Source of the DNA: Escherichia phage REP2
Reading direction: 5' to 3' (one strand)
Length of the DNA: 64,000 nt
Sequence record: OQ174501.1
Shown here: positions 7,075 through 63,890 of the stretch, piece after piece
How the letters are laid out: each line of letters begins with the position of its first letter
How positions within the stretch are numbered: position 1 is the stretch's first letter
The notes under the pieces: generated by a model
What the model was told of the DNA's origin: nothing
Databases searched by the model: none
What the model saw: the letters and a program-made list of their open reading frames with translations, nothing else
Translations under genes and position numbers: made by a program

Positions 7075-7295
7075 TGGCAAAGATAATTATTGAAGGTTCT
7101 GAAGATGTGCTAAATGCTTTCGCCGAGTGGTTTAGTAATTCAGGCGAACAGCAATTTAACGAAGCATGGAACATGGGTGATATTAATGGAATTTATCCTA
7201 CGACAGAAATTTCTGTTCAAGGATATGGCATTCATGAACCTATTCGTTTAGTTGAATATGATTTGGGAACAGGTGAGGAAGTAAAATATGATTGA
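7074..7295 (+). CDS. Hypothetical small acidic protein
   Basis: TAATG overlap with the upstream gene; 73 aa. Confidence 0.5.
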   Translation: MAKIIIEGSEDVLNAFAEWFSNSGEQQFNEAWNMGDINGIYPTTEISVQGYGIHEPIRLVEYDLGTGEEVKYD

Positions 7296-7554
7296 AGACA
7301 TTAAAGGTTATAAACCACATACTGACGATAAAATCAGTAAAGTGAATGCTATCAAAGATGCTGAAGTTCGTTTAGGGCTTATCTTTGATGCTTTATATGA
7401 TGAATTCTGGGAAGCATTTGATAGCTGTGAAGATGATGAACTCGCGAAGAATTACGCCGAAAGCCTCGATCAGTTAACTATTGCTAAAACGAAACTCAAA
7501 GAATCCAGTATGTGGGCTTGTCGTGCAGTGTTCCAACCAGAGGAAAAATACTAA
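7288..7554 (+). CDS. Hypothetical small helical protein
   Basis: 88 aa; SD upstream. Confidence 0.5.
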
Positions 7555-7832
7555 TGGCTCAATTAAGCGCAGGGTTTGGTTATGAGTATTATACTGCCCC
7601 TCGTCGTGTATCTGTTGCTCCTAAGAAAATTCAAAGTCTTGATGATTTCCAGGAAGTAGTTCGTAACGCTTTCCAGGACTATGCACGTTATCTTAAAGAA
7701 GATTCACAGGACTGTCTCGAAGAAGATGAAATTGCTTACTATGAGCAGCGTCTTGAACAGCTCAAAAATCTACATGAGGTTCGTGCAGAAGTTTCAAAGT
7801 CTATGAATAAATTGATTAGATTTAAAGAATAA
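7554..7832 (+). CDS. Hypothetical small helical protein (vs.3/vs.4 position)
   Basis: ATG 7554 after SD gagga (ORF track starts at 7512); 92 aa; immediately upstream of regB. Confidence 0.5.
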
Positions 7833-57842: not shown

Positions 57843-58154
57843 ATGGTTTATGTATATGCGATAGTTTACCGAGACAAAGACGGATTTACGGCGCCAGTTC
57901 CACTTGATGAACATCGTCCTGCTGTATTTTTTGAAAGGGAGATTGCTGATAAAGTATTTACTACTCTTAAAGAGCAGTATCGACTAGCTTTAGGTATGGG
58001 AATTCCGAGATTAGTTGAGACTCCACGCAAGTTTTGGTTTAATAAAATAGAAGTTAAACATGTTAAGCCTGATGTAGACACACAAAGATTATATCGGCGA
58101 ATTTTAGATACTGGGCGTATTGTTAGTATACCAATTGCAGGGAATTTACGATGA
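57843..58154 (+). CDS. Hypothetical protein (dda.1 position)
   Basis: 103 aa; overlaps the dda start. Confidence 0.55.
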   Translation: MVYVYAIVYRDKDGFTAPVPLDEHRPAVFFEREIADKVFTTLKEQYRLALGMGIPRLVETPRKFWFNKIEVKHVKPDVDTQRLYRRILDTGRIVSIPIAGNLR

Positions 58155-59470
58155 CATTTGATGATTTGACCGAAGGTCAGAAAAATGCCTTTAACATTGT
58201 TATGAGGGCTATCAAAGAAAAGAAACATCATGTGACTATTAATGGACCTGCCGGTACTGGTAAGACTACTCTTACCAAGTTCATCATTGAAGCCTTAATA
58301 TCTACAGGCGAAACTGGCATTATTTTAGCAGCTCCTACACATGCAGCTAAAAAGATTCTTTCAAAACTATCAGGGAAAGAAGCGAGTACTATTCACAGTA
58401 TTCTTAAAATTAACCCAGTAACATATGAAGAAAACGTTCTTTTTGAACAAAAAGAAGTACCGGATTTAGCTAAATGCAGAGTATTAATCTGCGACGAAGT
58501 GTCAATGTATGATAGAAAGCTATTCAAAATTCTACTTTCAACTATCCCGCCATGGTGTACTATAATTGGAATAGGGGATAATAAGCAAATTAGACCTGTT
58601 GACCCAGGAGAAAACACTGCTTATATCAGTCCATTCTTTACACATAAAGATTTTTATCAGTGTGAACTCACTGAAGTTAAACGCAGTAATGCTCCTATTA
58701 TTGATGTAGCTACTGATGTTCGCAACGGTAAGTGGATTTATGATAAAGTTGTTGACGGCCATGGAGTACGTGGATTTACTGGTGATACCGCTTTACGCGA
58801 TTTTATGGTAAATTATTTTTCAATCGTAAAATCACTAGACGATTTGTTTGAAAATCGCGTAATGGCATTTACAAATAAATCTGTTGATAAGTTAAATAGC
58901 ATTATTCGCAAAAAGATTTTTGAAACTGATAAAGATTTTATCGTTGGTGAAATTATTGTAATGCAGGAACCATTAATTAAAACATATAAAATTGATGGAA
59001 AGCCTGTGTCAGAAATTATTTTTAATAACGGACAATTAGTTCGTATTATAGAAGCAGAGTATACATCAACATTTGTTAAAGCTCGCGGTGTTTCTGGAGA
59101 ATATCTAATTCGTCATTGGGATTTAACAGTAGAAACTTACGGCGATGATGAATATTATCGTGAAAAGATTAAAATAATTTCATCTGATGAAGAGCTGTAT
59201 AAGTTTAACTTATTTTTAGGTAAAACGGCAGAAACTTATAAAAATTGGAATAAAGGTGGAAAAGCTCCGTGGAGTGATTTTTGGGATGCTAAATCACAGT
59301 TTAGTAAAGTGAAAGCACTTCCCGCATCAACATTCCACAAAGCTCAGGGCATGTCTGTAGACCGTGCTTTCATTTATACGCCTTGTATTCATTATGCAGA
59401 CGCTGAACTAGCTCAGCAGCTTCTTTATGTTGGTGTTACTCGTGGTCGTTATGATGTGTTTTATGTGTGA
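58151..59470 (+). CDS. dda: Dda DNA helicase (SF1B)
   Basis: 439 aa; Walker A GPAGTGKTT; matches T4 Dda as I recall it. Confidence 0.93.
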   Translation: MTFDDLTEGQKNAFNIVMRAIKEKKHHVTINGPAGTGKTTLTKFIIEALISTGETGIILAAPTHAAKKILSKLSGKEASTIHSILKINPVTYEENVLFEQKEVPDLAKCRVLICDEVSMYDRKLFKILLSTIPPWCTIIGIGDNKQIRPVDPGENTAYISPFFTHKDFYQCELTEVKRSNAPIIDVATDVRNGKWIYDKVVDGHGVRGFTGDTALRDFMVNYFSIVKSLDDLFENRVMAFTNKSVDKLNSIIRKKIFETDKDFIVGEIIVMQEPLIKTYKIDGKPVSEIIFNNGQLVRIIEAEYTSTFVKARGVSGEYLIRHWDLTVETYGDDEYYREKIKIISSDEELYKFNLFLGKTAETYKNWNKGGKAPWSDFWDAKSQFSKVKALPASTFHKAQGMSVDRAFIYTPCIHYADAELAQQLLYVGVTRGRYDVFYV

Positions 59471-59476
59471 GGATAT

Positions 59477-59737
59477 ATGATTAACATCAATTCAAAATAT
59501 TTAAATCGTCTAATAGATGGTATAAAGAAGCATACTGATAAGCAAGATAACCTCAGTGTTATGGTAACAGGAGCTGAGCTCCTTTATAAACTTAATCTTA
59601 TAAGTGATACTATACTAGCAATTAAACGAATTGAAAAACAATCATATCATAGTAATACAGACACGGTAATTACATTAGATGAAAGTGTCTGTAAGCTGCT
59701 GATTAAATTTGAGGAAGCTATTCGTGGAAATAACTAA
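59477..59737 (+). CDS. Hypothetical small protein
   Basis: 86 aa. Confidence 0.45.
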   Translation: MININSKYLNRLIDGIKKHTDKQDNLSVMVTGAELLYKLNLISDTILAIKRIEKQSYHSNTDTVITLDESVCKLLIKFEEAIRGNN

Positions 59738-59969
59738 AGACCAGTTTTATCTGCTTCAAGATAAAGTGAGCGAAATTTATGAAATTGCTTATAGCAAAAA
59801 TCGTGAAACTGTAAAAATAGAATCTAGTAAGTTGAGGCTTCAATTAGAAGAAATTGAACGAGATTTAATTGCGTTAGAATTCTTTTGTGGTGAAGTGAAA
59901 ACTGTTACAATCAATGATTATATTTTAGGCGAAATTAGCTATCTTTATAAGGCGATTATTAATGATTGA
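59709..59969 (+). CDS. Hypothetical small protein, paralogue of the next ORF
   Basis: 86 aa; shares a ...TINDYILGEI / ...IQDYTVGQI motif with 59962-60204. Confidence 0.45.
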   Translation: MRKLFVEITKDQFYLLQDKVSEIYEIAYSKNRETVKIESSKLRLQLEEIERDLIALEFFCGEVKTVTINDYILGEISYLYKAIIND

Positions 59970-60204
59970 ATTGAGTTGGTACCAGTTTAAATCTCTTATG
60001 ACAAATGTTAAAGCTGTCATTGAAGAAAATCCGGGTCCTGAAAATATTACTATTCGCGAAAAAGCTTCAAAGATAGTATACAGTCTTGAAGAGATACAAA
60101 AAGACATTGAATCTATGGCAAAATTTATTGATGAGCCTATTAATAAAGTTTATATTCAAGACTATACTGTAGGTCAAATTCGCGATTTAGCAAGGAAAAT
60201 TTAA
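59962..60204 (+). CDS. Hypothetical small protein
   Basis: 80 aa. Confidence 0.45.
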   Translation: MIELSWYQFKSLMTNVKAVIEENPGPENITIREKASKIVYSLEEIQKDIESMAKFIDEPINKVYIQDYTVGQIRDLARKI

Positions 60205-60887
60205 TGTTTGATTTTATTATAGATTTTGAAACAATGGGAAGCGGCGAAAAGGCAGCTGTTATTGATTTAGCTGTAATTGCTTTTGACCCTAATCCAGAAG
60301 TCGTTGAAACATTTGATGAATTAGTTTCACGTGGCATTAAAATCAAGTTTGATTTAAAAAGCCAAAAAGGACATCGTCTTTTTACTAAAAGTACTATCGA
60401 ATGGTGGAAGAATCAATCCCCTGAAGCTCGAAAAAATATTGCACCATCAGATGAAGATGTAAGCACCATCGATGGTATTGCAAAATTTAATGATTACATC
60501 AATGCACATAATATCGATCCTTGGAAATCTCAAGGCTGGTGCCGTGGAATGTCGTTTGATTTTCCAATTTTAGTCGATCTCATTCGTGATATTCAACGTC
60601 TTAATGGTGTTTCTGAGAATGAGCTTGACACATTTAAGTTAGAACCGTGTAAATTCTGGAATCAGCGTGATATTCGTACCAGAATTGAAGCACTTCTGCT
60701 TGTTCGTGATATGACCACATGTCCTCTTCCAAAGGGAACTTTAGATGGATTCGTTGCACATGATTCTATTCATGACTGTGCGAAAGACATCCTGATGATG
60801 AAGTATGCTTTGCGATATGCTATGGGTCTTGAAGATGCTCCGTCAGAGGAAGAGTGCGATCCTCTGTCTCTTCCAACAAAACGATAA
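60204..60887 (+). CDS. dexA: Exonuclease A (DnaQ-like 3'-5' exonuclease)
   Basis: 227 aa; N-terminal DFETMG exonuclease motif; position downstream of dda. Confidence 0.85.
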   Translation: MFDFIIDFETMGSGEKAAVIDLAVIAFDPNPEVVETFDELVSRGIKIKFDLKSQKGHRLFTKSTIEWWKNQSPEARKNIAPSDEDVSTIDGIAKFNDYINAHNIDPWKSQGWCRGMSFDFPILVDLIRDIQRLNGVSENELDTFKLEPCKFWNQRDIRTRIEALLLVRDMTTCPLPKGTLDGFVAHDSIHDCAKDILMMKYALRYAMGLEDAPSEEECDPLSLPTKR

Positions 60888-60950: not shown

Positions 60951-61451
60951 ATGAAAATTTATCGTGTTGAATCATCGTTTAGTATTCTTGATTATGAAGA
61001 TGCTATAACAATACGTCGAAATCTTTGTGTTCAAATAACGCCGTACAGGAGTATAATAGATTCATGGAGCGAAGAGTGGCTATTACACGTAGGTTATGAC
61101 AGACCTAATTTTATGCATCATAGCGATAATAATAAAAGAATTCCTTTACCACACGAAGATAAACTATTAGTTAAAAACGCTAATATAGTAATTAATACTA
61201 AGTTCAAGAAAGATTATGTTGGAGTAGAATATCATATTCCCGGATGGTTTATAGCTCTTTATCATTTTGCTTTTGCTAGCGAATATGATATGATGAGATG
61301 GTTCACACGAGAAGAGCGTGAAGAATTATCTTCGAAAGGATTTTATCTTGCTGTATACGAAGTACCAGATGACCAAGTTATCGTTGGCGGGCATCAAGTA
61401 ATGTTCCGCAAATCTCATGCCGAACTAAAAGGCTTTATTACCTTAGATTAA
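60951..61451 (+). CDS. Hypothetical protein
   Basis: 166 aa from the ATG after gaggataataaa (ORF track starts at 60912). Confidence 0.5.
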   Translation: MKIYRVESSFSILDYEDAITIRRNLCVQITPYRSIIDSWSEEWLLHVGYDRPNFMHHSDNNKRIPLPHEDKLLVKNANIVINTKFKKDYVGVEYHIPGWFIALYHFAFASEYDMMRWFTREEREELSSKGFYLAVYEVPDDQVIVGGHQVMFRKSHAELKGFITLD

Positions 61452-61461
61452 AGAGAAAATT

Positions 61462-61965
61462 ATGATTAAAAATAATGCTGTTTATCAATTGAAAAAATTT
61501 GATGAAATTAAGAATTTTCCGGTACTGTCTAATACAGCTCATAATAAGTTTTGTGAACTTCTTGCTTTAACTGGCGGATATCCTTTTACTGTTATTAGTG
61601 TTAATAGCGGAATTCTTATCGGCATGATGTATATTGAAATTAGAAACTATTATGGAATGGTGTCATCGCTTATTATTTATGAAAAAGATTTTAGTCTATT
61701 GACAGAAATTGAAAAAGAAGAACAGGAAAAATCCCATATTGATATGGATTTAGTTTCTATGTATGTGGCACCAGTTGAAAAAATTGAAGACCCGACTGAT
61801 TTGTTGTGTAAGGCAGTTTACATTCGTCGTCCATTCGCGAATCCGGTCGGTGGTTGGGTAACTGACCAGTGGATTGAAGATGGCGTTGAACTTCTGAACG
61901 TAGTTCATGCTGGAGAATACTCTGTAGTTCCTCGTAGCGCAGTGATTAATGTTCGTGTAAGCTAG
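61462..61965 (+). CDS. Hypothetical protein sharing a C-terminal domain with the next gene
   Basis: C-terminal GGWVTDQWIEDGVELLNVVHAGEYSVVP resembles TDQWVEDGVKLYNAVFLGTYKVIP in 62039-62530. Confidence 0.5.
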   Translation: MIKNNAVYQLKKFDEIKNFPVLSNTAHNKFCELLALTGGYPFTVISVNSGILIGMMYIEIRNYYGMVSSLIIYEKDFSLLTEIEKEEQEKSHIDMDLVSMYVAPVEKIEDPTDLLCKAVYIRRPFANPVGGWVTDQWIEDGVELLNVVHAGEYSVVPRSAVINVRVS

Positions 61966-61996
61966 TTTACAAACTCTTGGGACCAGAGTATAATGG
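61958..61996 (+). promoter_or_regulatory. T4 early promoter with flanking inverted repeat
   Basis: GTTTAC 61965-61970, TATAAT 61989-61994; gggacca / tggtcc arms. Confidence 0.6.
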
Positions 61997-62038
61997 TCCT
62001 GTGGAGTATAAAATCTTTTTAACAAGTGAGAGATAATT

Positions 62039-62530
62039 ATGAATATTAATATCGGCGAAATTGCTCGTGTATCTGATAAATCCCGTTCTAAAGCAGCAGG
62101 AAAATTGGTCGAAGTTGTAAGCATTCAGCTTAAACACGGTGTTAAAGATGAAGATTCTGAAGTAAAAGTACGTATCATTGCTAAAGATGGAATGTCTAAG
62201 CCCCAGTTTGGTTATGTTCGATGGAAATTTCTTGAGCCTGCGTTTTTGAAAGCTGTTCCTGCTAAAGGAATTGAAACGATTGATACTTCGCATGTAGGTG
62301 TAGACTTTAAGTGGAAACTTGGTCAAGCTATCAAGTTCATTGCTCCTTATGAGTTTGAATTTATCGAAGGTGGACAACCACTTCCTCGGCGTACTCGCGC
62401 TATGTGTGCATACATTACTGATCAATGGGTAGAAGATGGCGTTAAGTTATACAACGCGGTATTTTTAGGAACATACAAAGTCATTCCTGAAAGTTGGATT
62501 AAACACTATAGCAAAGCTCGCTATGCATAA
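62039..62530 (+). CDS. MotB-position protein (tentative)
   Basis: 163 aa; position downstream of dexA. Confidence 0.45.
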   Translation: MNINIGEIARVSDKSRSKAAGKLVEVVSIQLKHGVKDEDSEVKVRIIAKDGMSKPQFGYVRWKFLEPAFLKAVPAKGIETIDTSHVGVDFKWKLGQAIKFIAPYEFEFIEGGQPLPRRTRAMCAYITDQWVEDGVKLYNAVFLGTYKVIPESWIKHYSKARYA

Positions 62531-62702
62531 AGTTTAAAATTTTTTCATAAAACTATATACATCAGTAGTTGATTATGGTACTATATCAATATCAACTACT
62601 GATATAGAAAATAATTTGGAGAATAAAATGGAAAATTTGCTAAAGGTGCTGCTACTCTTCTGAAACGCATCGCTCCAATGTTCAATTAACGAGGAAATTG
62701 TA

Positions 62703-62918
62703 ATGAAACGTAAAATTGTTCAGAACTGCACTAATGACGAATTTGAAGATGTGTTATTCGATCCAGATTTGGTAGTAGTTCAAAAGGAACACACTGCTAA
62801 GTTTACTCACTTGACTTCGGTTTATGTGTATGAAAAGGTTGGGGATAAACAACCAATTTACGGTGTATTTCGTGAAATCACTGAAGATGGTACAACTTAC
62901 TGGAAGGAAATTTATTAA
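62703..62918 (+). CDS. Hypothetical small protein
   Basis: 71 aa. Confidence 0.5.
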
Positions 62919-63337
62919 TGGCTATTAAATTTGAAGTTAATAAATGGTATCAATTTAAAAATAAACAAGCTCAAGAAAATTTTATTAAAGACCATACTGA
63001 TAACGGAATCTATGCGCGGCGTTTAGGTATGGAACCTTTTAAAGTTATAGATATTGACCATCTTGGTCGTCCTACTAAAATTGTGACATCTACTGGAAGA
63101 TTGGCGTTATCCTCCGGTAAAGATATTTTGGATGAAGATTTTATTTGGCTTTCAACGAGCGAAGCTGAGTTCTTTAATGAAGTGGAAAATCCATATCAGG
63201 CAGCTGAAGAACAAGAGCAGGAAGAGCAAGAACAAATAGAAGATTTCACAGAATTCCCGATCATGAAAGTTACTATTGAAAATAATGAACAAGCATGGTC
63301 CTTGTATCAGATGTTGAAAGCACACTTTAAGGAATAA
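62918..63337 (+). CDS. Hypothetical protein with acidic EQ-rich segment
   Basis: 139 aa. Confidence 0.5.
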
Positions 63338-63518: not shown

Positions 63519-63890
63519 ATGTTTAAAATCGGTAAGAAATATCGCATTCGTGAAGGTGAAGAACAGAAATATCTACTTTCTGCTAGTAATAGGAATAGTT
63601 CTATTAATGCTGTAATATTGACTAGTGAATTTATCGTTGAAGATATGAAAGGTCATAATGTTACAATGATTAGTACAGCATCTGGAAATGATGGAAAAAT
63701 TCTTCACAGTTTTCAGAGTAATGTTCTAATATATGATGAAGAATTTGACCTATTCGAAGAAGTCCCCGAAGGTTTTGATTTTGAATGCACTATCACTATG
63801 AAATCTGGTGACCCTCTTTCATTTACGGTTAAAGATGAAAGAAGTCGCTTGAGAATTATTAGTCTCCTTCAAGCCATTAAATTTGAGTGA
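63519..63890 (+). CDS. Hypothetical protein
   Basis: 123 aa. Confidence 0.5.
   Translation: MFKIGKKYRIREGEEQKYLLSASNRNSSINAVILTSEFIVEDMKGHNVTMISTASGNDGKILHSFQSNVLIYDEEFDLFEEVPEGFDFECTITMKSGDPLSFTVKDERSRLRIISLLQAIKFE

What the first reader, a model, noticed from the sequence alone, without database searches (positions are those of the whole stretch)
61462..62530. Adjacent genes share a C-terminal domain
The 167-aa protein at 61462-61965 and the MotB-position protein at 62039-62530 share a C-terminal block (TDQWIEDGVELLNVV...VVP versus TDQWVEDGVKLYNAV...VIP) with unrelated N-termini. This points to domain duplication or module exchange in the region downstream of dexA.
Basis: seen in the sequence. 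Interest (0 to 1): 0.35.

Follow-up and report, generated by a model that had tools for sequence, protein, structure and literature searches.

The report
MotB and MotB.1 share a domain
Two neighbouring early genes of a T4-like phage, motB.1 and motB, do share a homologous C-terminal domain behind different N-terminal domains, but this was published in 2021, so the finding is real and ordinary.

Summary
The 167-aa protein (61462-61965) and MotB (62039-62530) share a C-terminal block: BLASTP E=8e-10, 16/31 identical; family profiles 99.3% probability, E=2.5e-20. AlphaFold2 predicts the same five-stranded small beta-barrel for both C-termini.

The window is a Tequatrovirus, 100% identical to phage REP3 over the 3 kb searched. 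The 167-aa gene is the full-length orthologue of T4 motB.1. The second gene is motB, 87% identical to T4 MotB, a characterised non-specific DNA-binding, H-NS-modulating protein.

The shared C-terminal domain with different N-terminal domains is already published (Patterson-West et al. 2021, PMC7827196). So is the LSm-like MotB.1 N-terminal domain shared with GoF and Frd.2 (Kim et al. 2025, PMC12152347).

Three points found here are not mentioned in the papers I read:
- The 119-aa MotB.1 of the T4 reference comes from one extra G inside the shared block. Three re-sequenced T4 genomes aligned here lack it and encode 143 aa.
- The motB.1 slot is a cassette. Near-identical phages swap the N-terminal part, with the right-hand junction inside the C-terminal-domain coding sequence.
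- The shared domain is acidic to neutral, so it is probably not MotB's DNA-binding part.

Novelty: already known. Interest: low.

The parts
61462..61965 (+). motB.1, full-length form (167 aa): LSm-like/SH3-like N-terminal barrel, linker, MotB-type C-terminal barrel
   Evidence: ORF. PHROG 2333 at 276 bits. It is 65% identical to T4 MotB.1 over the part T4 retains. It lies between motB.2 and motB, as in T4 and Sf21. P0001 is 98% identical and 167 aa.
61462..61725 (+). MotB.1 N-terminal domain (res 1-88), GoF/Frd.2-type five-stranded barrel
   Evidence: AF2 strands 7-10, 42-49, 55-61, 67-73 and 80-83, pLDDT 70-89. The barrel profile of the 180-aa alleles hits it at E=1e-3 and hits the ORF at 63519-63890 at E=7e-7. 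Published as an LSm-like fold (PMC12152347).
61726..61794 (+). Acidic flexible linker (res 89-111) carrying the motif HIDMDLVSMYVAPVEKI. It includes a 66-nt segment (61709-61774) that T4 lacks, bounded by TTGAAAAA direct repeats at 61709-61716 and 61775-61782.
   Evidence: pLDDT 51-54. Indel seen in the alignment with T4. Repeats. The position of the motif varies across the family.
61795..61962 (+).
   Evidence: AF2 strands 118-123, 126-139, 142-149, 152-157 and 161-163, pLDDT 81-89. Pfam PF17613 at 33.3 bits. hhalign E=2.5e-20.
61966..61994 (+). Early-promoter-like site TTTACA-17-TATAAT for motB, starting one base after the motB.1 stop
   Evidence: Best site in the scan, 11 of 12 matches. It is identical in T4. 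The function is inferred, not shown.
62039..62530 (+). motB (163 aa): basic KOW-like N-terminal barrel (res 1-68, 62039-62242), disordered linker (62243-62320), C-terminal barrel (res 95-163, 62321-62527). The shared block is 62408-62500.
   Evidence: Pfam PF17613 at 315 bits, full length. 87% identical to T4 MotB. AF2 N-terminal strands 8-11, 23-30, 41-46, 56-61 and 65-67; linker 70-86 with pLDDT below 50; C-terminal strands 97-108, 117-132, 135-142, 145-150 and 154-157. pI 9.4.
62918..63337 (+). goF: a neighbour whose N-terminal barrel is of the same fold family as the MotB.1 N-terminal domain
   Evidence: PHROG 622 and goF PHROGs. Sf21 annotation. Weak hit by the barrel profile, E=0.19. PMC12152347.
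63519..63890 (+). 123-aa GoF/Frd.2-like paralogue (absent from T4) with the same N-terminal barrel type
   Evidence: PHROG 622 at E=1.6e-28 and PHROG 2333 (the MotB.1 family) at E=7e-4. The barrel profile of the 180-aa MotB.1 alleles hits it at E=7e-7.

Best explanation
The two genes are motB.1 and motB of a T4-like phage (Tequatrovirus). Each encodes a small two-domain early protein: an N-terminal five-stranded beta-barrel, a flexible linker, and a C-terminal five-stranded beta-barrel of about 55-65 residues.

The C-terminal barrels are homologous and come from an ancient duplication. The N-terminal barrels belong to different sequence families. MotB has a basic KOW-like barrel. MotB.1 has an acidic LSm-like barrel of the GoF/Frd.2 type, a type also present in two neighbouring genes.

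The motB.1 slot keeps evolving by cassette exchange. Closely related phages carry different N-terminal modules, and one or two copies of them, fused to the same nearly invariant C-terminal domain. Recombination uses motB.2 on the left and the C-terminal-domain coding sequence, promoter and motB on the right as homologous flanks.

Function, shown for T4 MotB in the literature: tight non-specific DNA binding, co-purification with H-NS and StpA, an altered H-NS footprint, and a two-fold larger burst.

Function, inferred here: MotB's DNA affinity comes mainly from its basic N-terminal barrel. The shared C-terminal domain is a common anchor or association module, either binding one shared partner or mediating self- or hetero-association, onto which different N-terminal modules are mounted. 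Acidic MotB.1 would then not be a MotB-like DNA coater. It would bring a different activity (RNA or protein binding) to the same place.
For: Identity of the genes:
- REP3 is 100% and Sf21 99.8% identical over the 3 kb searched.
- Gene order matches T4 and Sf21.
- MotB is 87% identical to T4 MotB. MotB.1 aligns with T4 MotB.1 at E=7e-62.

Homology of the C-terminal domains:
-.
- Both AF2 models show the same strand pattern, with a short helical turn before the last strand.
- A BFVD search with the MotB.1 model returns MotB entries (ranks 9-10).

Old duplication: 56% nucleotide identity and 42% at third codon positions.

N-terminal families:
- hhalign of the MotB against the MotB.1 N-terminal domain gives 1% probability.
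- The barrel profile of the alternative alleles hits the 63519-63890 ORF at E=7e-7 and the MotB.1 N-terminal domain at E=1e-3.
- PMC12152347 reports the same grouping.

Cassette exchange:
- Proteins of 143 to 252 aa share a nearly invariant C-terminal core.
- The 180-182-aa alleles sit in the same slot.
- The DNA identity profile is mosaic.

Charge:
- MotB has pI 9.4 with an N-terminal domain of +4. MotB.1 has pI 4.95.
- All 118 MotB.1-type proteins have pI 4.3-6.1.
- In a sample of 18 MotB-type proteins the N-terminal domain is mostly +4 to +9 (two exceptions, 0 and -2), while the C-terminal domain is -6 to +2.

MotB biochemistry: PMC6070864 and PMC7827196.
Against: - No experiment assigns DNA binding to either MotB domain. 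The authors of PMC7827196 state that either could do it.
- Net charge is a crude proxy, and a local basic patch on the C-terminal domain is not excluded.
- The partner or association role of the C-terminal domain is pure inference. No multimer prediction or interaction data were available here.
- The fold assignment is weak. Foldseek E-values against the PDB are only 1e-3 to 3e-3, with TM about 0.3-0.4 on two-domain models. The published HHpred assignment is an OB-fold.
- A T4 motB.1 deletion has no phenotype under laboratory conditions.
Confidence: 0.8

Rival explanations
1. The shared C-terminal domain is an OB-fold nucleic-acid-binding domain. This is the published HHpred-based reading. Under it both MotB and MotB.1 are DNA- or RNA-binding proteins through this domain, and the N-terminal domains only modulate.
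For: PMC7827196 assigns MotB residues 69-149 to the cold-shock/OB family b.40.4.5, with archaeal eIF5A as the closest hits, and notes that the motif is shared with MotB.1. The domain is an all-beta five-stranded barrel in my models, which is compatible with either OB or SH3-like topology at the level of a strand list.
Against: - The domain is acidic to neutral in both families, with mean net charge about -3. The range in the MotB-type sample is -6 to +2.
- MotB.1-type proteins are uniformly acidic, pI 4.3-6.1.
- The invariant core TDQWxEDGVxL is itself acidic.
- For both models the top 50 PDB matches are mostly tandem Tudor, tandem KOW, SAWADEE and Agenet proteins, all SH3-like. No eIF5A or cold-shock OB entry appears.
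- The short helical turn sits before the last strand, as in SH3-like barrels.
Confidence: 0.25
2. The shared block is a recent intragenomic copy, either a gene conversion or a partial tandem duplication between neighbouring genes, specific to this phage lineage.
For: The genes are adjacent and on the same strand. There is a 12-nt identical run, GAAGATGGCGTT, and the two start regions resemble each other at 83% over 23 nt.
Against: DNA identity in the block is only 56%, and 42% at third positions. The same MotB and MotB.1 pair, with two distinct C-terminal subfamilies, is found across several Tevenvirinae genera.
Confidence: 0.02
3. The resemblance is a chance short motif with no common ancestry.
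For: The pairwise alignment covers only 31 residues. The region upstream of the core is not significant on its own (hhalign probability 7.6%).
Against: BLASTP E=8e-10. z=14.9 against shuffles. Pfam score above the gathering cut-off. Profile-profile E=2.5e-20. The predicted strand patterns match.
Confidence: 0.01

Closest known systems
T4 MotB (Pfam PF17613; PHROG 1671), a non-specific DNA-binding early protein that alters H-NS binding
   Same: The window's 62039-62530 product is 87% identical over its full length. It has the same position, the same upstream early-promoter-like site and the same two-domain layout.
   Different: Only small differences: one extra residue and a changed tip of the first C-terminal hairpin (EGGQPLPRRT against DDGRVVYT).
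T4 MotB.1 (PHROG 2333; UniProt P39415, '13.8 kDa protein in motB-dexA intergenic region'), Category 2 of Patterson-West et al. 2021 and an LSm-like family member in Kim et al. 2025
   Same: It occupies the same slot between motB.2 and motB, with the same N-terminal barrel and the same C-terminal core.
   Different: - The window protein is 167 aa, with a complete C-terminal domain and a 22-residue linker segment that T4 lacks.
- The reference T4 entry is 119 aa because of one extra G. Re-sequenced T4 encodes 143 aa.
The 180-183-aa and 244-252-aa 'MotB domain-containing' proteins of other Tequatroviruses (probably Category 4 of Patterson-West et al. 2021)
   Same: For the 180-182-aa alleles the genomic slot is the same. 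All share the nearly invariant C-terminal core. NBG2's C-terminal tail is identical to the window's (...SVVPRSAVINVRVS).
   Different: - The N-terminal barrel differs. It is closer to the window's 123-aa GoF/Frd.2-like ORF.
- Some carry two barrels, or a further N-terminal extension.
- The IDxDxxSxYVxPVxPL motif lies before the barrel rather than in the linker.
Tandem SH3-like barrel proteins (tandem Tudor of 53BP1 and UHRF1; Spt5 KOW pairs)
   Same: These are the best PDB structural neighbours of both models: two small five-stranded barrels in tandem.
   Different: There is no sequence similarity (about 10% identity). Scores are weak (E 1e-3 to 3e-3, TM 0.3-0.4). There is no evidence of a methyl-lysine cage or any shared function. 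This is a fold-level resemblance only.

Membership tests
Pfam PF17613 motB / MotB orthologue (62039-62530) | Full-length match above the gathering score | tested here: met
   315.3 bits against a cut-off of 25, covering residues 1-163 on profile positions 1-162. 87% identical to T4 MotB.
Pfam PF17613 motB / MotB orthologue (62039-62530) | Position downstream of motB.1 and upstream of cef in the dda-gene 39 early region | tested here: met
   The gene order dda, dexA.2, dexA.1, dexA, motB.2, motB.1, motB, cef, goF, 39.2 matches T4 and Sf21.
Pfam PF17613 motB / MotB orthologue (62039-62530) | Non-specific DNA binding and an effect on H-NS | not testable with these tools
   Known for T4 MotB (PMC6070864, PMC7827196). 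Here only pI 9.4 and 87% identity support it.
MotB.1 (PHROG 2333) orthologue (61462-61965) | Full-length profile match and the slot between motB.2 and motB | tested here: met
   PHROG 2333 at 276 bits, residues 1-166. BLASTP to T4 MotB.1 at E=7e-62. Synteny.
MotB.1 (PHROG 2333) orthologue (61462-61965) | MotB-type C-terminal domain (the C-terminal part of PF17613) | tested here: met
   33.3 bits, above the cut-off of 25, on profile positions 114-153. hhalign 99.3%.
GoF / MotB.1 / Frd.2 LSm-like N-terminal family (Kim et al. 2025) | N-terminal five-stranded antiparallel barrel, related to the GoF/Frd.2 N-terminal domains | tested here: met
   Five strands in the AF2 model. GoF of phage VR7 is among the BFVD matches at rank 31. 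A bridging profile hits the window's GoF-like ORF at E=7e-7, the MotB.1 N-terminal domain at E=1e-3 and goF only at E=0.19.
GoF / MotB.1 / Frd.2 LSm-like N-terminal family (Kim et al. 2025) | RNA-related activity | not testable with these tools
   In the published reporter assay only GoF(D25Y) had a clear effect. The MotB.1 tested there was the 119-aa reference form.
OB-fold (SCOPe b.40.4.5) for the shared C-terminal domain, as published | OB topology and structural neighbours among cold-shock or eIF5A C-terminal domains | tested here: inconclusive
   The Foldseek top 50 for both models are mostly SH3-like tandem barrels, with no OB entries, but E is only about 1e-3 and the domains were not searched separately. 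The helical turn before the last strand favours SH3-like topology.
KOW domain for the MotB N-terminal domain, as published | Match to a KOW profile or structure | tested here: inconclusive
   No Pfam KOW hit at E<=1. Spt5 KOW pairs (5ohq, 8ram_Z) appear among weak Foldseek matches. A 'KOW domain-containing protein' of Serratia phage PS2 appears in BFVD.
Nucleoid-associated, DNA-coating protein (a MotB-like function) for the 167-aa MotB.1 | Basic protein with non-specific DNA affinity | tested here: not met
   pI 4.95 and net charge -7. All 118 MotB.1-type proteins have pI 4.3-6.1. Binding itself was not measured.

The most novel reading that the evidence does not exclude
The motB.1 slot is a diversification cassette of host-takeover or counter-defence proteins. 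A constant, nearly invariant C-terminal domain anchors the protein to one conserved target, the same one that MotB's C-terminal domain contacts, such as the H-NS/StpA-DNA complex or MotB itself. Exchangeable LSm/SH3-like N-terminal modules, with a movable short motif (IDxDxxSxYVxPVxPL), supply variable specificity and are swapped between phages by recombination inside the C-terminal-domain coding sequence. As a corollary, the published null results for T4 'MotB.1' were obtained with a C-terminally truncated artefact of the reference sequence and do not describe the real protein.
Probability: 0.2. Interest if true: 0.5.

Novelty: already known. Interest (0 to 1): 0.2.

Why it matters
The finding itself adds nothing new. 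The shared MotB/MotB.1 C-terminal domain and the different N-terminal domains were described in 2021 and 2025.

Two practical points may matter to people working on T4 early genes.

1. The reference T4 MotB.1 (NC_000866/AF158101, UniProt P39415, 119 aa) is cut in the middle of the conserved domain by a single extra G.
   - Three re-sequenced T4 genomes aligned here lack it, and eleven further near-identical records align with a single 1-nt gap.
   - The 2025 paper states that gene synthesis, plasmid construction and sequencing were done by a vendor unless otherwise indicated, names NC_000866.4 for the amber constructs, and reports a 13.8 kDa product.
   - Its negative result for MotB.1 may therefore concern a truncated protein.
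2. The slot is a natural domain-swap series with a constant C-terminal domain. This is a ready-made resource for finding out what that domain does.

Tried and rejected
- **PDB sequence search.** Searches with both proteins found nothing significant (best E=0.18-0.19).
- **Extending the homology upstream.** I tested whether it reaches into the linker and the IDxD motif region. That piece alone is not significant (hhalign probability 7.6%), and AF2 gives it low confidence in both proteins. I therefore do not count it as part of the shared domain.
- **Sequence relationship between the two N-terminal domains.** None found (probability 1%).
- **A third, unannotated C-terminal-domain copy in the 64-kb window.** None found.
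- **The C-terminal domain outside the family.** A two-sequence profile against 1.84 billion representatives gave 38 hits at E<=1e-3.
  - Ten short new hits (126-199 aa) tested against Pfam are all PF17613 members. The other short hits were not checked individually.
  - The hits of 625-2732 aa match in 3 to 20 stretches each. Those inspected are an artefactual tandem-repeat translation and Ig-like or InlB B-repeat proteins, whose many weak repeat matches add up. I rejected the long hits as false positives.
- **Pfam on the dexA.1, dexA.2 and motB.2 ORFs.** No families in this copy of the library.
- **Literature search for reports of errors in AF158101.** It failed on a formatting limit and was not repeated.

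Full report
**What is there**

The region holds a row of short same-strand ORFs. A 3-kb stretch around the finding is 100% identical to Escherichia phage REP3 and 99.8% to Shigella phage Sf21. It matches about 700 T4-like phage records in all.

Comparison with the annotated T4 and Sf21 genomes gives this gene order:
- dda (58151-59470)
- dexA.2 and dexA.1
- dexA (60204-60887)
- motB.2 (ending at 61451)
- the 167-aa ORF (61462-61965)
- motB (62039-62530)
- cef, goF, 39.2, and a 123-aa ORF that T4 lacks

The 167-aa ORF sits where T4 has motB.1. It matches T4 MotB.1 at E=7e-62 and PHROG 2333 over its whole length. The second ORF is motB: Pfam PF17613 at 315 bits and 87% identity to T4 MotB.

**Check of the observation**

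The shared block is real and far beyond chance.
- BLASTP aligns residues 131-161 with 124-154, 16/31 identical, E=8e-10.
- The local alignment score is 14.9 standard deviations above shuffles.
- Pfam's motB model hits the 167-aa protein above its gathering score, on its C-terminal part only.
- Profiles built from 59 and 57 distinct C-terminal sequences of the two families align at 99.3% probability, E=2.5e-20.
- Only these two ORFs in the 64-kb window carry the domain.
- The N-termini have no detectable sequence similarity.

**Extent and shape of the shared domain**

AlphaFold2 models were built on alignments of 73 and 65 sequences. Mean pLDDT was 79.5 and 77.8. Both proteins show the same plan.

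| Part | MotB.1 (167 aa) | MotB (163 aa) |
|---|---|---|
| N-terminal barrel | five strands between residues 7 and 83 | five strands between residues 8 and 67 |
| Linker | 90-110, pLDDT 51-54 | 70-86, pLDDT below 50 |
| C-terminal strands | 118-123, 126-139, 142-149, 152-157, 161-163 | 97-108, 117-132, 135-142, 145-150, 154-157 |

- In both C-terminal barrels a short helical turn precedes the last strand.
- MotB's first C-terminal hairpin is longer.
- Sequence similarity upstream of the core is not significant on its own.

Foldseek against the PDB gives only weak matches for both models (E 1e-3 to 3e-3). Most are tandem Tudor, tandem KOW, SAWADEE or Agenet proteins, that is, pairs of SH3-like barrels. 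No OB-fold protein appears in the top 50. This leans against the published HHpred assignment of the C-terminal domain as an OB-fold, but it does not settle the question.

**Evolution**

The two C-terminal domains are old paralogues. The block is 56% identical in DNA and 42% at third codon positions.

Within the MotB.1 branch the C-terminal core is nearly invariant across proteins of 143 to 252 aa:

DPTDLLCKAVxIRRPFxNPICGWVTDQWIEDGVELLNVVHAGDFSVVPRSAV

These proteins have different N-terminal barrels, one or two copies of them, and a short motif (IDxDxxSxYVxPVxPL). The motif lies either in the linker, as here, or before the barrel.

The 180-182-aa forms occupy the same slot between motB.2 and motB in other Tequatroviruses. 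Against phage NBG2, DNA identity runs as follows:

| Window interval | Identity to NBG2 |
|---|---|
| up to about 61300 | 96-100% |
| about 61310-61430 | 83-90% |
| 61430-61800 | 36-50% |
| about 61800-61860 | 75% |
| from about 61860 | 98-100% |

The N-terminal part is therefore a swapped cassette, and the right-hand junction lies inside the C-terminal-domain coding sequence.

**Function**

T4 MotB binds DNA tightly without sequence specificity, whether the DNA is modified or not. It co-purifies with H-NS and StpA, changes the H-NS footprint, is toxic when overproduced and doubles burst size (PMC6070864; PMC7827196). Which domain binds DNA is not known.

The charge pattern points to the N-terminal barrel.
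- The window's MotB has pI 9.4, with an N-terminal domain of +4.
- In a sample of 18 MotB-type proteins the N-terminal domain is mostly +4 to +9 (two exceptions, 0 and -2), while the C-terminal domain is -6 to +2.
- The 167-aa MotB.1 has pI 4.95, and all 118 MotB.1-type proteins have pI 4.3-6.1.

From this I infer that the shared domain is not the DNA-binding part. It is more likely a common partner-binding or association module carrying different N-terminal modules. This step is inference only.

A strong early-promoter-like site (TTTACA-17-TATAAT, 61966-61994) starts one base after the motB.1 stop and is identical in T4. The conserved right flank of the cassette therefore includes the C-terminal-domain coding sequence, this promoter and motB.

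**Comparison with the literature**

Patterson-West et al. 2021 (PMC7827196) state that T4 MotB and MotB.1 share a conserved C-terminal domain with different N-terminal domains. They suggest that one gene arose by duplication of the other, and they sort 102 homologues into four categories by N-terminal type. Kim et al. 2025 (PMC12152347) show that the N-terminal domains of MotB.1, GoF and Frd.2 are similar LSm-like/SH3-like barrels. The finding is therefore already known.

**An addition: the T4 reference sequence**

The T4 reference (AF158101/NC_000866) has GGATTGGAAGAT where the window has GGATTGAAGAT, at window position 61875/61876 inside the shared block. The extra G ends T4 MotB.1 at 119 aa (...DQWIGRWR). 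The downstream T4 DNA still encodes EDGVELLNVVHAGEYSVVPRSAV in the other frame.

- Thirteen other near-identical records (T4 isolates, T4T, RB55, RB59) align 521 query bases to 520, and one more T4-named record (T4_ev151, 94% identical) does the same.
- Three of the near-identical records, checked base by base, lack exactly this G.
- Two records annotate motB.1 as 143 aa.
- The 143-aa protein is seen on 256 contigs, against 2 for the 119-aa form.
- Neither paper mentions a truncation or frameshift.
- The 2025 paper states that gene synthesis, plasmid construction and sequencing were done by a vendor unless otherwise indicated. It names NC_000866.4 as the source of its amber constructs and reports a 13.8 kDa product.

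Whether the extra G is a sequencing error or a mutation of the originally sequenced stock cannot be decided here.

**Verdict**

Interest is low. The T4 reference frameshift and the cassette behaviour of the slot are small extras that could be useful.

Noticed in passing
window 61875/61876 (corresponds to NC_000866.4 motB.1, record 7291-7650): The T4 reference genome carries one extra G here. It truncates MotB.1 to 119 aa in the middle of the conserved C-terminal domain. Three re-sequenced T4 genomes aligned base by base lack it and encode a 143-aa protein, and eleven further records (ten near-identical, plus T4_ev151 at 94%) align 521 query bases to 520. The published MotB.1 product is reported at 13.8 kDa, the size of the 119-aa form.
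   Followed up: yes
window 61430-61860; L006 2501-3049; L007 and L008 2501-3043: The motB.1 slot is polymorphic among near-identical Tequatroviruses. A different N-terminal cassette (180-182-aa alleles) sits between highly identical flanks, and the right breakpoint lies inside the C-terminal-domain coding sequence.
   Followed up: partly
window 61735-61785 (residues 92-108, HIDMDLVSMYVAPVEKI): A short conserved motif, IDxDxxSxYVxPVxPL, changes position within the family. It lies in the linker here and in RB68-type proteins, at the extreme N-terminus before the barrel in the 162-183-aa alleles, and is absent from the 143-145-aa T4 type. AF2 gives it low confidence, so it may be a docking peptide. 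Its role is unexplained.
   Followed up: partly
window 61709-61782: The 66-nt segment present here but absent from T4 is bounded by 8-nt direct repeats, TTGAAAAA at 61709-61716 and 61775-61782. This fits a microhomology-mediated deletion in the T4 lineage.
   Followed up: yes
window 62558-62606 (between motB and cef): A strong hairpin with a 13-bp stem, CATCAGTAGTTGA/TCAACTACTGATA. The surrounding 95 nt fold at -24.2 kcal/mol, z=-5.2 against shuffles. No T-run follows, so it is not a classic intrinsic terminator. Its function is unknown.
   Followed up: partly
window 59709-59969 and 59962-60204 (dexA.2 and dexA.1): This is another adjacent paralogue pair in the same early region, 30% identical over 80 aa, E=1e-8. 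An extra 86-aa ORF at 59477-59737, between dda and dexA.2, has no counterpart in T4 or Sf21 and no detectable relative among its neighbours.
   Followed up: partly
window 63519-63890: A 123-aa ORF absent from T4 is a GoF/Frd.2-like paralogue (PHROG 622, E=1.6e-28). Its N-terminal barrel is closest to the barrel of the alternative 180-aa MotB.1 alleles (E=7e-7). The window therefore holds three genes with this barrel type within 2.5 kb.
   Followed up: partly
window 61452-61474 and 62029-62051: The translation start regions of motB.1 and motB are 83% identical over 23 nt (AGAGAAAATTATGATTAAAAATA against AGAGATAATTATGAATATTAATA). This may simply reflect the usual T4 start context.
   Followed up: no
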